This document shows, in pieces, positions 46,151 through 60,953 of a stretch of 64,000 nt of DNA (positions within the stretch are counted from its first letter, which is position 1; each line of letters opens with the position of its first letter). Location of the stretch: the NCBI GenBank assembly GCA_963846575.1, contig CAWJWJ010000002.1, positions 1,824,001 through 1,888,000 on the forward strand. The letters are read 5' to 3'. The notes under the pieces are model-generated. The model was not told where the DNA came from, searched no databases, and was given only the letters and a program-made list of their open reading frames with translations. Origin of the DNA: an uncultured Nitrospiraceae bacterium (GTDB taxonomy: Bacteria; Nitrospirota; Nitrospiria; Nitrospirales; Nitrospiraceae). The position numbers were made by a program, and so were the translations under genes.

Positions 46151-46185
46151 AGAGTACCATGCCCGCGTGACATTCCGGGTCACGG
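46151..46185 (-). promoter_or_regulatory. Putative WYL-regulator operator/promoter, site 2
   Basis: Minus strand CCGTGACCcggaATGTCACGcgggcaTGG-TACTCT. Confidence 0.7.
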
Positions 46186-46426
46186 TATGGGCAGAGCTGA
46201 GGCCGATGCAGACGAGTCACCCGTTTCGGCCCGGCTCGGCTCCCCTGTCTGCTGTCCTCGAAATCCGTTGCGGAGAAACGCTCCACCTTTCGTTGGCGGC
46301 GGCTATGCGGGTCCGACGAGACGACGCGAAAGGTTCCCGGAACGAAGCGGAAACCCTCGTGAATGTTTCTTTGCTCTCGGTGGCCCCACTCGTTAAGATG
46401 TGGACTATTCAACGGGGGCGTGACAC

Positions 46427-49114
46427 ATGAGCGACAACGATTCCGTTCCTCGACCGCAGGCCGACGACGATCCGCAGGAAACTCAGGAATGGCTGGATAG
46501 CCTCGAGTACGTGCTCGACGCCAAGGGCACCGACCGGGCCGGGTATCTGTTCGAGCGGCTCCGCGACCGGCTCGGCGCACGCGGCGCACCCGTGTCCGCT
46601 CCCTTCAACACGCCCTACGTCAACACGATCCCTGCGAGTGAGCAACCGCCTTACCCCGGCAATCTCGACATCGAACGGCGGATCCGGAGCTTCATTCGCT
46701 GGAACGCGATGGCGATGGTGGTGAAGGCCAACAAGCAGCGCCCCGGCATCGGCGGCCATATTTCGACCTATGCGTCGGCGGCCACGTTGTACGAGGTCGG
46801 CTTCAACCATTTTTTCCACGGCAAGGACGCGCCCCAGGGCGGCGATCTGGTCTACTTTCAGGGCCACGCGGTGCCCGGCATCTATGCGCGCAGTTACGTC
46901 GAGGGCCGGCTGCCGGAAGAGGCGCTGCACCACTTCCGCGGCGAGCTGAGCGGCGGCGGACGAGGCCTGTCTTCCTATCCGCATCCCTGGCTCATGCCCG
47001 ATTATTGGGAGTTCCCCACCGTATCCATGGGTCTCGGGCCCATCATGTCGATCTATCAGGCGCGCTACAACCGGTATCTTCAGGAGCGCGACCTCAAGGA
47101 TACGAGCCGGCAGCGGGTCTGGGCCTTCATCGGCGACGGCGAAACCGACGAACCGGAAAGTCTCGGAGCGATCACGCTGGCCTCCCGCGAACAGCTCGAC
47201 AATCTGACCTGGGTGGTGAACTGCAATCTCCAGCGCCTCGACGGGCCGGTGCGCGGCAACGGCAAGATCATCCAGGAGCTGGAAGCCATTTTCCGCGGCG
47301 CCGGCTGGAACGTCATCAAGGTGATCTGGGGCAGCGACTGGGATCCGTTGCTCGCGAAAGACCACGAAGGCCTGCTGGTGAAGCGGATGGGCGAGGTGGT
47401 CGACGGGTGGTATCAGAAGTACTCGGTGGAAGGCGGCGGGTTCGTGCGGAAACACTTTTTCGGCGCCGATCCGCGGCTGCTCGCGATGGTCGAGTCCTAC
47501 TCGGACGAACAGCTCCATAAGATGCTGCGCGGGGGCCATGATCCGCGCAAGGTGCATGCGGCCTACAAAGCGGCGGTCGAACACAAGGGGCAGCCGACCG
47601 TGATCCTGGCCAAGACGATCAAGGGCTACGGCCTGGGCGAAGCCGGCGAAGGGCGCAACGTCACGCATCAGCAGAAAAAGATGAACGAACATGAGCTGCG
47701 GGAGTTCCGCACGCGCTTCGGCGTGCCGGTGCCCGATGACCAGCTGGCCTCGACGCCGTTCTTCCGGCCACCGGACGGCAGTCCGGAGGCGGCCTATCTC
47801 CTCGAGCGGAGCAAGGCCATGGGCGGGCAGATCCCGGAACGGCGCGTGAAGGTGGAATCCCTGCAGACGCCGCCGCTCGAGGACTTCAAGGAGTTCGTGG
47901 AGGGCTCCGGCGACCGGGCGGTCTCGACGACGATGGGTTTCGCCCGCATGTTGGGACGCCTGCTCTCCCGCAAGGATGTCGGCAAACATCTCGTGCCGAT
48001 CATTCCAGACGAGGCGCGTACGTTCGGGCTCGAAGCGCTCTTCCGCCAATATGGGATCTATTCGCACATCGGCCAGCTCTACGAGCCGGCCGACAAGAGT
48101 TCCCTGCTCTATTATTTCGAAGCGACCAACGGGCAGATCCTGGAAGAAGGCATTACCGAAGCCGGCGCGATGTCGTCCTTCATCGCCGCGGGCACCGCCT
48201 ACGCTACGCATGCGCTCAATACCATTCCTTTTTACATTTATTATTCGATGTTCGGGTTTCAACGGGTCGGCGATTTGATCTGGGCCGCCTCCGACATGCG
48301 GGCCAGGGGGTTCCTGCTCGGCGCCACGGCGGGTCGGACCACGCTGGAAGGCGAAGGCCTGCAGCATCAGGACGGCCACAGCCATCTGCTCGCGAGCGCC
48401 GTGCCCAGGATGGCCGCCTACGACCCGGCCTTCATGTTCGAGCTGGCCGTGATTCTGCAGGACGGCATGAAGCGCATGTACCAGGATCAAGAAGACCTGT
48501 CCTACTACATCACGCTCTACAACGAGTCGTACCCCATGCCGCCCATGCCGCCGCAGGCGGAAGAAGGAATCCGGGAAGGCATGTATCGTTTCCGTCCGGC
48601 CCCGGCCCCCGGCAGGCATCGGGCGCATCTGCTGGCGAGCGGGCCGCTCGTCAACGAGGCGCTGCGGGCGCAGGAGCTGCTTCTCGAACGGTACGGCGTG
48701 GCGGCCGATGTCTGGAGCGTGACCAGCTACAAGACGCTGCGGTTCCGGACGCTCGAGGCCGAGCGCTGGAACATCCGGCATCCGGACGAGACGCCGCGCG
48801 TGAGCTACCTCCAAAAGACCGTCCCGGCGCTGGACGGCCCCTGCGTCGCGGTGAGCGATTACGTCCGCCTGGTGAGCGAGCAGATCGCCCCCTGGATACC
48901 GGGCGGGCTGCTGGCCCTGGGGACCGACGGCTTCGGCCGCAGCGATTCTCGCAAGGCCCTGCGCCGGTTCTTCGAGATCGACGCCGAACATCTCGCGGTG
49001 GCCACCCTCTACGCCCTGCATCGGCGGGACGGGCGGATCGACGCCAAAACGGTCAGGCAAGCGGCGCAGGATCTGGGTGTCGAAGGCGACGACCTGGCGC
49101 CCTGGCAGCGCTGA
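46427..49114 (+). CDS. aceE: Pyruvate dehydrogenase E1, homodimeric type
   Basis: GGHISTYAS, GLSSYPHPWLMP, PTVSMGLGP, GDGETDE, YSMFGFQR, GEGLQHQDG. Confidence 0.95.
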   Translation: MSDNDSVPRPQADDDPQETQEWLDSLEYVLDAKGTDRAGYLFERLRDRLGARGAPVSAPFNTPYVNTIPASEQPPYPGNLDIERRIRSFIRWNAMAMVVKANKQRPGIGGHISTYASAATLYEVGFNHFFHGKDAPQGGDLVYFQGHAVPGIYARSYVEGRLPEEALHHFRGELSGGGRGLSSYPHPWLMPDYWEFPTVSMGLGPIMSIYQARYNRYLQERDLKDTSRQRVWAFIGDGETDEPESLGAITLASREQLDNLTWVVNCNLQRLDGPVRGNGKIIQELEAIFRGAGWNVIKVIWGSDWDPLLAKDHEGLLVKRMGEVVDGWYQKYSVEGGGFVRKHFFGADPRLLAMVESYSDEQLHKMLRGGHDPRKVHAAYKAAVEHKGQPTVILAKTIKGYGLGEAGEGRNVTHQQKKMNEHELREFRTRFGVPVPDDQLASTPFFRPPDGSPEAAYLLERSKAMGGQIPERRVKVESLQTPPLEDFKEFVEGSGDRAVSTTMGFARMLGRLLSRKDVGKHLVPIIPDEARTFGLEALFRQYGIYSHIGQLYEPADKSSLLYYFEATNGQILEEGITEAGAMSSFIAAGTAYATHALNTIPFYIYYSMFGFQRVGDLIWAASDMRARGFLLGATAGRTTLEGEGLQHQDGHSHLLASAVPRMAAYDPAFMFELAVILQDGMKRMYQDQEDLSYYITLYNESYPMPPMPPQAEEGIREGMYRFRPAPAPGRHRAHLLASGPLVNEALRAQELLLERYGVAADVWSVTSYKTLRFRTLEAERWNIRHPDETPRVSYLQKTVPALDGPCVAVSDYVRLVSEQIAPWIPGGLLALGTDGFGRSDSRKALRRFFEIDAEHLAVATLYALHRRDGRIDAKTVRQAAQDLGVEGDDLAPWQR

Positions 49115-49150
49115 GCTCGCGATGGGCGAAACGAAAGAAATGAGGATCGC

Positions 49151-59805: not shown

Positions 59806-59867
59806 GGGATCCTCCTTTTCGGCCACCGGCCCCGGCATGGGGCCGGCAGGGTTCCAGGGCCTGCGGG

Positions 59868-59902
59868 ATGCTACCACGCCGCCGTGACATCGGAGGTCAC
59901 GG
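59868..59902 (-). promoter_or_regulatory. Putative WYL-regulator operator/promoter, site 1
   Basis: Minus strand CCGTGACCtccgATGTCACGgcggcgTGG-TAGCAT; perfect CCGTGAC-N7-GTCACGG palindrome. Confidence 0.72.
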
Positions 59903-59969
59903 TCACGCAGTATTTCTGTCCATTCCGGCCATGCGGGCTCGGGTCCCCCAACAACCAGTCCAGGAATTA

Positions 59970-60953
59970 TCATTCCTCAAGTATCAGTTGAGCTTCATGA
60001 CGCACGGCCAGGGCCAGGCTTTCCGGCCTGAGCACCTTGACCCCGCCCCCGAAGCTCAACACCCAGCCAACCACTTCCCTGCTGTCGGCCACCGAGAGGG
60101 TCATGCGCAGGCCACCGTTCTTCGTTCGTTTGCTCTGCTGCGTATCATGCCAGATTCGGTCCTTCGCCCAGGCGGCCGTCGCCTTCTCGAATTCCAGTTC
60201 CACGTCGATCCGCGGGCCGCGCATCACCGTCAGCGCATCCTGCACAAACGCGTCGAGATCGAAATGCAGAGGGACCTGGTAGGGATGGTCGGTCGGCGTG
60301 ACGGACTTAATGCGCTCCACGGCGAACAGGCGCGGTTCGCTACGCACATGGCAGTAGCCGATCAGATAGAGGCCGCCGGTCGCATACCACAGGCGGTAGG
60401 GATCCACCTCGCGCCTGGTGATCCGCCCGCGCGAGGCGGAGTCGTACCGCACCTGAATAGTGGTCTTGTCGGCGATGGCTCTCGTGAGCCGGTCGATCGT
60501 GTCGCGATGCTGCCGGTAGCGTTTGTGCGGGCCGAGCCCGACGCTGAACGTCCCGTCGAGTTGTTGAACCAGGGCGACGCCCTGCGGGGGCAGCGCGGCA
60601 GCGGCTTTCCCGAGTGCGGATTGCAGCGAGGTATGGAGTTCGGTGCCTTCGAGCGGCGTGATGAGCCGGCGGCTGAACGTGAGCGCCATCAGTTCCGAGG
60701 GAGAGAATCGCAACCCCGGCACGTTCCGGAATCCTTCCATGAGACGCCAGATGGTCTGCCCGTTGATCCGTTCGGTGACCAGCGGATAACCCGCTTCTTC
60801 CAATGCGGCGAGATCACGACGGAGGGTCCGGGGATGCCTCGTGGAGCCGGGCGCGAGCGAGTCCGCCAGCTGCTCCAGCGTCAGGCCTTGCCCCGACGCC
60901 TCCAATTGCTTGAGCACGACCAACAGACGAATAGCCTGATCGTTGCGCGGCAT
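59970..60953 (-). CDS. HTH-WYL-WCX transcriptional regulator
   Basis: wHTH RTLRRDLAALEEAGYPL; WYL RREVDPYRL..GLYLIGYC..R.FAVERI; WCX WVLSFGGGVKVLRPESL. Confidence 0.93.
   Translation of the reverse strand: MPRNDQAIRLLVVLKQLEASGQGLTLEQLADSLAPGSTRHPRTLRRDLAALEEAGYPLVTERINGQTIWRLMEGFRNVPGLRFSPSELMALTFSRRLITPLEGTELHTSLQSALGKAAAALPPQGVALVQQLDGTFSVGLGPHKRYRQHRDTIDRLTRAIADKTTIQVRYDSASRGRITRREVDPYRLWYATGGLYLIGYCHVRSEPRLFAVERIKSVTPTDHPYQVPLHFDLDAFVQDALTVMRGPRIDVELEFEKATAAWAKDRIWHDTQQSKRTKNGGLRMTLSVADSREVVGWVLSFGGGVKVLRPESLALAVRHEAQLILEE

What the first reader, a model, noticed from the sequence alone, without database searches (positions are those of the whole stretch)
46151..60953. Two matching operator-promoters define a probable PafBC-like WYL regulon over defence-type loci
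Seen: minus-strand CCGTGACC-N4-ATGTCACG-N6-TGG-TAnnnT at 59868-59902 and 46151-46185, with identical spacing. Site 1 lies directly downstream of the WYL gene and before the secreted-protein/nuclease-helicase operon. Site 2 lies before the Cys-rich gene and the hsd/OLD island. An extra half-site is at 46117. Known: mycobacterial PafBC (HTH-WYL-WCX) activates promoters of the form TGTCGG-N10-TAnnnT, and WYL domains sense single-stranded nucleic acid. Both sites here read TGTCAC-N10-TAnnnT. Inference: a homodimeric WYL activator drives a DNA-damage- or phage-inducible regulon.
Basis: partly seen in the sequence, partly recalled or inferred. Interest (0 to 1): 0.82.

Follow-up and report, generated by a model that had tools for sequence, protein, structure and literature searches.

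The report
WYL activator regulon over Nitrospira defences
The two matching DNA sites are real and recur across Nitrospira in front of CRISPR-Cas and restriction operons, where they likely let one WYL-family regulator switch antiphage defences on together, much as DdaA does in Acinetobacter but apparently without DNA-repair genes.

Summary
Both sites are there as described. They are the only two GTGAC-N7-GTCAC-N10-TAnnnT matches in this genome. The motif occurs in 34 of 36 genus relatives; the two without it also lack the WYL ortholog. Of 76 palindromes found with no -10 requirement, 67 have TAnnnT exactly 10 bp downstream. Reverse test: 22 of 22 cas3 genes and 24 of 75 hsdM genes have a same-strand site within 5 kb upstream, against 0.002 by chance. 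The first gene is usually a small leader: a predicted secreted Asn/Pro-repeat protein or a Cys-rich protein. Geometry and recognition helix match homodimeric DriD better than PafBC. No site lies before recA. This genome lacks Cas and intact HsdM, so its regulon is two promoters: NP-repeat gene plus nuclease-helicase, and Cys-rich gene plus a decayed type I R-M operon with an intact OLD nuclease. Best reading: a defence-dedicated, DriD-type WYL activator, functionally parallel to DdaA but not its ortholog. Binding, activation and the inducing signal are inferred, not shown. New variant of a known kind.

The parts
59970..60953 (-). WYL transcription factor gene (wHTH-WYL-WCX, 327 aa); the only WYL gene in the genome; no motif upstream of itself
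   Evidence: Pfam HTH_11, WYL, WCX; one PF13280 match in the genome; 85-96% orthologs in 34 of 36 genus relatives; upstream DNA
59884..59900 (-). Site 1 operator palindrome GTGAC-N7-GTCAC, about 70 bp after the WYL stop codon; overlaps the expected -35 position
   Evidence: sequence; 39.6 bits
59868..59876 (-). Site 1 predicted extended -10 element TGG-TAGCAT, 10 bp after TGTCAC
   Evidence: sequence; spacing conserved in 67 of 76 cores
59365..59805 (-). Leader gene 1: 146-aa Asn/Pro/Ser/Gly-rich repeat protein with a signal-peptide-like N terminus (read by eye); unknown function
   Evidence: no Pfam, NCBIfam, PADLOC or PHROG match; 1314 homologs; model pLDDT 92, pTM 0.80; no Foldseek PDB match at E<=10; NP-type genes come first after 44 of 101 sites
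55917..59354 (-). TM0106-family RecB-like nuclease fused to a superfamily 1 helicase (1145 aa), starting 11 bp after the leader gene's stop
   Evidence: TIGR03491 over its cut-off; PADLOC MkoA partial match; junction
46167..46183 (-). Site 2 operator palindrome GTGAC-N7-GTCAC, divergent from aceE
   Evidence: sequence; 30.7 bits; a site with the same upstream flank drives intact hsdR in L202
46151..46159 (-). Site 2 predicted extended -10 element TGG-TACTCT
   Evidence: sequence
46118..46125 (-). Lone half-site ATGTCACG with no upstream half and TAGGGA 11 bp later; probably a decayed second box (inference)
45734..46045 (-). Leader gene 2: 103-aa Cys-rich protein (four invariant Cys, likely metal-binding); in relatives usually the first gene of cas3 operons
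   Evidence: alignment; first gene after 13 of 101 sites; no family match; model pLDDT 62, no significant fold match
45557..45634 (-). hsdR 5' stub (26 codons)
   Evidence: 73-81% identical to the N termini of intact HsdR in L195 and L070; family REase_I
45355..45507 (-). hsdS 3' stub
   Evidence: 55% over 51 aa to the C terminus of the gene after hsdR in L204
43458..45326 (-). Intact OLD-family ATPase-Toprim nuclease (622 aa, 49% GC); a passenger between hsdS and hsdM
   Evidence: PADLOC AriA 1e-58, Old 4e-27, GajA; Walker A, signature and Toprim motifs present; GC
43155..43430 (-). hsdM 5' and 3' stubs joined by a large deletion
   Evidence: 41-68% to both ends of the HsdM in L203

Best explanation
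The palindrome GTGAC-N7-GTCAC sits exactly 10 bp before a -10 box in front of CRISPR-Cas, restriction-modification and other defence operons across Nitrospira, and is likely the binding site of the WYL protein encoded at 59970-60953, which would act as a DriD-type homodimeric activator of a defence-dedicated regulon. Shown: motif, spacing, linkage to the WYL gene and to defence operons. Inferred: two wHTH heads read TGAC/GTCA through Arg42 and Arg46, the equivalents of DriD Arg37 and Arg41. The dimer sits over the absent -35 box and recruits housekeeping RNA polymerase. It is switched on when the WYL-WCX core binds a nucleic-acid ligand, most likely single-stranded DNA from phage infection, restriction or damage. 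The promoter usually travels with a small leader gene as a cap on whatever defence cargo follows. In this genome it caps an NP-repeat gene plus nuclease-helicase, and a Cys-rich gene plus a ruined type I R-M operon whose surviving cargo is an OLD nuclease.
For: Co-occurrence: full motif in 34 of 36 genus relatives, reversed control 1 match in 61 genomes; the two without it (G017, G025) are the two without the ortholog. Family-wide, the core palindrome is in 81 of 97 genomes with a WYL match and 23 of 64 without; reversed controls 15 of 97 and 6 of 64. Proximity: in 80 loci chosen only by WYL homology, 42 cores lie in 34 loci, 40 of 42 on the WYL strand, reversed control 0. This includes records titled Binatia, Rokubacteria and Methylomirabilota. 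A 30%-identical paralog has its own cluster of sites. Spacing: 67 of 76 cores found without a -10 requirement carry TAnnnT at exactly 10 bp; an extended -10 TG appears in unselected columns. Targets: 22 of 22 cas3-HD matches over the cut-off and 24 of 75 HsdM_N matches have a same-strand site within 5 kb upstream, chance 0.002. Of 101 classified sites, 37 precede R-M and 25 CRISPR. Cargo includes Cas3 of I-C, I-E-like and I-G systems, Cas9, several HsdM types, type III R-M and BREX. Eight upstream-context clusters among 31 sites compared. Protein: the profile scores DriD 101.7 bits over full length, PafBC 98.4, DdaA 85.4, against the repressors BrxR 31.6 and CapW 18-24. DriD promoter oligos read GAC-N7-GTC-xx-N10-CAnnnT, the same register (my reading of the sequences). 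Arg42, Arg46, Tyr196, Arg208 and Arg214 are invariant.
Against: No binding, start-site or expression data. Genus relatives are not independent, and most cas3 cases share one chromosomal locus. 51 of 75 hsdM genes have no strict site within 5 kb, and 17 of 19 such loci re-scanned have no relaxed site. One cas1 locus (G001, L379) has none. 23 of 64 WYL-less genomes still hold a core, above the control, and 13 of 86 ortholog-bearing genomes hold none. Outside the genus the strict -10 is weaker (21 of 42). G053 and G059 have a full match with no WYL hit at E<=1e-20. Two DriD ssDNA contacts are changed (Arg207 to Ala211, Tyr240 to Met244), and R207A impairs DriD, so the ligand may differ. 18 of 101 sites precede DnaG-like genes in paralog islands, which are not known defence genes.
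Confidence: 0.77

Rival explanations
1. The WYL protein binds the site but as a BrxR/CapW-type repressor that blocks the -35 region and is released by nucleic-acid ligand.
For: The palindrome overlaps the -35 position. WYL repressors are the common controllers of defence islands (PMC13622015 abstract). Some cargo is BREX.
Against: No TTGACA-like hexamer at 17-bp spacing (consensus there is CCYCGG). The distance to -10 is invariant, as for DriD. Profile scores for BrxR and CapW are a third or less of DriD's. No site lies before the WYL gene itself.
Confidence: 0.1
2. The palindrome belongs to a different regulator or sigma factor, and the WYL gene is only a neighbour in a defence hot spot.
For: An earlier unchecked scan note reports GTGAC-N7-GTCAC in a myxobacterial copper regulon (e1-2365194). 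Cores occur in 23 of 64 WYL-less genomes.
Against: Sites sit directly after WYL genes in several lineages and on their strand (40 of 42). Two 30%-identical paralogs each carry them. The recognition-helix arginines fit the G2/C4 read-out of DriD. Some background cores are coding chance, such as one in an rpoA-like gene.
Confidence: 0.06
3. The motif is mainly a recombination or cassette-boundary site for capture of defence genes, and the promoter look is secondary.
For: Motif-plus-leader modules occur as tandem repeats bounding cassettes, some of them toxin-antitoxin-like, next to the WYL gene (L063, L064, L066). The site comes and goes with cargo; equivalent empty loci here score at most 1.6 bits.
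Against: Fixed -10 with extended TG, ribosome-binding sites and start codons about 30-60 nt downstream in most NP-type cases. No recombinase gene was seen in the locus maps I printed. Homologous recombination between repeated promoters explains the arrays.
Confidence: 0.04
4. It is a PafBC-like global DNA-damage regulon whose other members have half-sites only.
For: Same register as PafBC tGTCgg-N10-tA-N3-T. No LexA DNA-binding domain was found in the genome.
Against: Half-site promoters are not enriched. The recA upstream region scores -7.4 bits. The weight matrix finds only the two sites. None of 101 classified sites was assigned to a core repair gene; only L198 has AddAB-like genes, read by eye.
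Confidence: 0.03

Closest known systems
DdaA of Moraxellaceae (PMC12392091)
   Same: Homodimeric wHTH-WYL-WCX activator encoded apart from most targets. Its motif precedes 90% of CRISPR-Cas and 27% of R-M systems in Acinetobacter, close to 22 of 22 and 24 of 75 here. Same Arg-to-Ala change in the WYL beta strand (FALHR against FAVER).
   Different: Not an ortholog on pairwise identity: 23% over 162 aa, 40 bits. Motif CGWCA-N5-TGWCG about 50 bp upstream of the start site, against GTGAC(C/A)-N5-TGTCAC over the -35 position. DdaA also runs recA, ssb, uvrA and ruvAB; no such targets were found here. No leader-gene caps in the passages I read.
DriD of Caulobacter (PMC13004042, PMC10853764)
   Same: Best full-length profile match. 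Palindrome with a 7-bp centre at a fixed distance from -10, no -35, small regulon, no autoregulation. DriD also controls a dnaG gene, and sites in paralog islands precede DnaG-like genes.
   Different: About a quarter identical by eye of the alignment (55.8 bits). Half-site TGAC instead of CGAC, matching Glu40 replaced by Arg or Tyr (inference). Targets are defence operons, not division arrest and repair.
PafBC and SiwR of mycobacteria (PMC8635444, PMC10693628)
   Same: Same domain plan; TGTC exactly 10+2 bp before the -10 box. SiwR is a homodimer on a palindrome upstream of -10 that activates adjacent genes.
   Different: PafBC is a heterodimer on a non-palindromic site with about 150 repair genes. 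SiwR controls one dinB-like operon.
BrxR and CapW WYL repressors
   Same: WYL regulators of defence systems.
   Different: Repressors encoded inside the system they control; weak profile scores of 18-32 bits.

Membership tests
wHTH-WYL-WCX transcription factors | N-terminal wHTH, WYL and WCX domains | tested here: met
PafBC-type | Heterodimer from adjacent pafB and pafC genes | tested here: not met
   one WYL gene in the genome
PafBC-type | Non-palindromic tGTCgg-N10-tAnnnT site | tested here: not met
   register equal but the site is a palindrome with TGTCAC; half-sites not enriched
PafBC-type | Large DNA-repair regulon including recA | tested here: not met
DriD-type activators | Palindrome with 7-bp centre at a fixed distance from -10 and no -35 | tested here: met
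DriD-type activators | DriD site CGAC-N7-GTCG and Glu40 | tested here: not met
   TGAC-N7-GTCA; Arg or Tyr at the Glu40 position
DriD-type activators | ssDNA-binding residues of the WYL pocket | tested here: inconclusive
   Tyr192 and Arg204 equivalents invariant, Tyr168 equivalent kept; Arg207 is Ala and Tyr240 is Met
DriD-type activators | Homodimer, ssDNA-dependent binding and activation | not testable with these tools
   needs biochemistry
DdaA clade | Sequence orthology to DdaA | tested here: not met
   23% over 162 aa; the profile scores DdaA below DriD and PafBC. The paper's iterated PSI-BLAST cluster was not rebuilt.
DdaA clade | CGWCA-N5-TGWCG motif | tested here: not met
   sites differ at the outer bases; that motif is not enriched in this genome (23 against 16-53 at other spacings)
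DdaA clade | Arg-to-Ala change in the WYL strand | tested here: met
   but 66 of 110 other representatives share it, so it is not diagnostic
DdaA clade | Motif before CRISPR-Cas and R-M operons | tested here: met
BrxR/CapW repressors | Autoregulatory operator before its own gene and close sequence similarity | tested here: not met

The most novel reading that the evidence does not exclude
Nitrospira has a purely immune alarm regulon: one core WYL sensor, and a portable promoter-plus-leader cap that is grafted onto newly acquired CRISPR, R-M and BREX operons and so puts them under host control. The commonest leader, a secreted Asn/Pro-repeat protein with a confidently predicted fold that matches no solved structure, is itself an unrecognised extracellular arm of antiphage defence, such as a decoy, an adsorption blocker or a warning signal.
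Probability: 0.2. Interest if true: 0.88.

Novelty: new variant of a known kind. Interest (0 to 1): 0.66.

Why it matters
It gives a precise, testable operator for an unstudied WYL clade and predicts joint induction of CRISPR-Cas, R-M and BREX in nitrite-oxidising bacteria of soils and wastewater plants. With DdaA it suggests that host-level WYL activation of immunity arose more than once, here apparently uncoupled from DNA repair. The motif also works as a discovery tag: genes behind it (NP-repeat secreted protein, Cys-rich protein, vWA protein, TM0106 nuclease-helicase, lone OLD) become candidate defence genes.

Tried and rejected
CRP/FNR-type site: rejected, the half-site spacing is 3 bp longer than the recalled TGTGA-N6-TCACA. 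MerR-type activation: GTGACC as a -35 would need a 21-bp spacer, longer than the recalled 19-20. The generic sigma-70 scan finds neither promoter, as expected without a -35. Degenerate sites at recA and at the empty equivalents of relatives' loci: none. CRISPR and HsdM in this genome: not found. Motif scan of viral contigs: 113 matches; no tested reference protein, WYL included, hit the fetched loci, so treated as chance. NP-repeat homologs occur in 25 viral loci with no palindrome nearby. RNA data: no RNA holder listed. Cys-rich protein: Atlas gave only hypothetical clusters, the longer-protein search gave 3 hits and no useful fusion, the fold search nothing significant. NP protein: Atlas hypothetical only; the wide structural search had not finished, so the fold claim rests on Foldseek alone. 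The tree had weak support (0.75 for the ortholog clade) and lacked DriD and PafBC, so it is not used for placement. Earlier-findings look-ups by place, sequence and words found no report on this system. Literature searches found no description of this motif or regulon; subscription journals are not covered.
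Full report
Observation. Stripped to its core the element is GTGAC-N7-GTCAC-N10-TAnnnT. It has two matches in the 4.2-Mb genome, both in this window, and none in the reversed control. A matrix from 83 distinct sites of relatives gives 39.6 and 30.7 bits; nothing else independent exceeds 15.9, and the control tops at 15.8. The half pattern that suggested PafBC is not enriched (6 matches against 2-11 at other spacings). 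The closest named homologs of the WYL protein are from Nitrospira records.

Anatomy here. Site 1 lies about 70 bp after the stop of the only WYL gene. It precedes a 146-aa Asn/Pro-repeat gene and, 11 bp after that gene, a TM0106-family nuclease-helicase. In several relatives the WYL gene is followed directly by the symporter gene that here lies after this cassette, so the cassette is an insertion. Site 2 points away from aceE and precedes a 103-aa Cys-rich gene, then stubs of hsdR and hsdS, an intact low-GC OLD-family nuclease, and stubs of hsdM. In L202 a site with the same upstream flank drives intact hsdR. Site 2 is therefore the promoter of a decayed type I R-M operon whose passenger gene survived. 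No cas3, cas1 or HsdM_N match was found in this genome (99.9% complete).

Link to the WYL gene. The ortholog (85-96% identical) is in 34 of 36 genus relatives, the full motif in 34 of 36, and the two exceptions coincide (G017, 94% complete; G025, 80%). The motif was in 0 of 10, 0 of 5 and 4 of 9 genomes of three other families. Two of those four sites lie within about 1 kb downstream of a WYL gene; two have no WYL hit at E<=1e-20. Across 161 family genomes the core palindrome is in 81 of 97 with a WYL match and 23 of 64 without (reversed controls 15 and 6); within two other genera 26 of 32 against 8 of 21, and 13 of 17 against 6 of 18. Kin are not independent, so I give no weight to the P values. 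In 80 loci picked only by WYL homology, 34 hold 42 cores, 40 on the WYL strand, control 0. A mobile paralog at about 30% identity has clusters of sites with a pyrimidine-rich centre.

Promoter geometry. Of 76 GTGACC cores found in 25 genus genomes without asking for a -10, 67 have TAnnnT at exactly 10 bp (symmetric GTGACA cores and G299 left out). Unselected columns show an extended -10 TG and no -35 consensus. The DriD promoter oligos in PMC13004042 read GAC-N7-GTC-xx-N10-CAnnnT (taking CAnnnT as the -10 is my reading, the figure was not seen), and the paper states that DriD sits over the -35 position at a fixed distance from -10. PafBC has the same register with one half-site. DriD reads G2 and C4 of each half with Arg37 and Arg41 and C1 with Glu40. 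Our protein keeps both arginines and has Arg or Tyr at the Glu position, and its site has T at position 1; that this explains the change is inference.

Targets. I classified 101 of the 104 sites in the 36 relatives by what follows within up to 5 kb (some contigs gave much less): R-M 37, CRISPR 25, DnaG-like paralog islands 18, TM0106 4, leader only 8, unassigned 9. The first gene is an NP-repeat gene at 44 sites and the Cys-rich gene at 13. Family scans confirm Cas3 (I-C by Cas5c, I-E-like, I-G), Cas9, several HsdM types and a type III-like restriction enzyme, and, in more distant loci, BREX, Cas6 and type III methylase. The reverse test starts from the defence genes: 22 of 22 cas3-HD matches over the curated cut-off have a same-strand site within 5 kb upstream (20 within 3 kb), as do 24 of 75 HsdM_N matches, chance 0.002 (matches under the cas3 cut-off left out). 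By hand comparison, 20 of 23 cas1 loci have a site within 17 kb upstream, 2 lie on other contigs and 1 has none. Of 19 hsdM loci without a strict site that I re-scanned, 2 had a variant site and 17 none. Upstream contexts of 31 sites fall into eight clusters, the largest holding 20 loci, and the equivalent empty loci of this genome have no site, so the promoter travels with the cargo. recA has no site.

Mechanism. Likely a constitutively made homodimer (no site before its own gene) that binds over the -35 position and recruits housekeeping polymerase once its WYL-WCX core has bound a nucleic acid. Activation rather than repression rests on the invariant spacing, the lack of a -35 and profile scores: DriD 101.7, PafBC 98.4, DdaA 85.4, BrxR 31.6, CapW 18-24 bits (I take entries 9pfq and 8tp8 as DriD because they align like 7tzv, which the paper names). 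The ligand is the weakest step: two DriD ssDNA contacts are changed.

Comparison. DdaA is the functional precedent: a WYL activator whose motif precedes 90% of CRISPR-Cas and 27% of R-M systems in Acinetobacter, with knock-out evidence. Our protein is not its ortholog by pairwise comparison (23% over 162 aa), its motif and position differ, and no repair regulon was found. So it works like DdaA on defence genes and like DriD on the promoter, and is a member of neither by the tests above.

Leader genes. The NP-repeat protein has 1314 homologs, none with a functional name among the 120 listed, a confident model (pLDDT 92) and no Foldseek match in the PDB (the wider search was not finished). The Cys-rich protein has four invariant cysteines and no informative match. 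Their roles are unknown; heading defence operons makes them candidates.

Papers seen: PMC13004042 (passages, first part of Results); PMC12392091 (passages, sections 28-29, supplement parts 1-2 and one supplement search with no Nitrospira hit; 187 of 189 supplement parts not read); PMC10853764, PMC10693628, PMC8635444, PMC5656591, PMC12259885 (passages); PMC13622015 (abstract and outline). No figures. CRP and MerR spacings are recalled. Searches found no description of this regulon.

Verdict. Observation confirmed; interpretation partly supported. New variant of a known kind; interest 0.66.

Noticed in passing
L063 8152-10840, L064 9570-11833, L066 4456-5598: The promoter-plus-NP-leader module is repeated two or three times in tandem near the WYL gene, some copies truncated, in L064 and L066 bounding toxin-antitoxin-like cassettes, like a small cassette array.
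   Followed up: partly
L217 3533/3635, L220 6123/6224, L145 3952/4048, L126 5149/5206, L068: A second palindrome without a -10 lies about 57-130 bp upstream of the promoter site, often at the WYL stop codon; possible looping or cooperative site.
   Followed up: no
own genome G000: No LexA DNA-binding domain match, two peptidase S24 matches not inspected, and no WYL site at recA; how DNA repair is regulated here is open.
   Followed up: partly
L076-L081, L189, L200: Mobile islands with a paralogous WYL gene and one or more DnaG-like primase genes whose N terminus resembles a twin-arginine export signal, each behind a site.
   Followed up: partly
L379 1670-6968: cas1 and cas4-like genes next to a 1039-aa protein with no PADLOC match at 1e-15, beside what looks by eye like a Pup-proteasome locus; no WYL site.
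   Followed up: no
L210 14625, L164, L166, L168, L221: In other genera the site often precedes a vWA-like protein (phrog_7371); in L210 it again lies divergent from aceE.
   Followed up: partly
L002, L003, L004 just after the WYL stop: A different inverted repeat (TCAA/TTGA-rich) follows the WYL gene in three relatives, in two of them before a Fic-like gene read by eye.
   Followed up: no
L187 1519: A site lies upstream of what looks like a CRISPR repeat array with no cas gene between.
   Followed up: no
window 46427-52999: Ordinary pyruvate dehydrogenase operon aceE-aceF-lpdA with lipoate ligase; a TGTCACG on the minus strand overlaps the aceE ribosome-binding region, probably chance.
   Followed up: no
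L241-L265: NP-repeat homologs occur in 25 viral contigs without the palindrome.
   Followed up: partly
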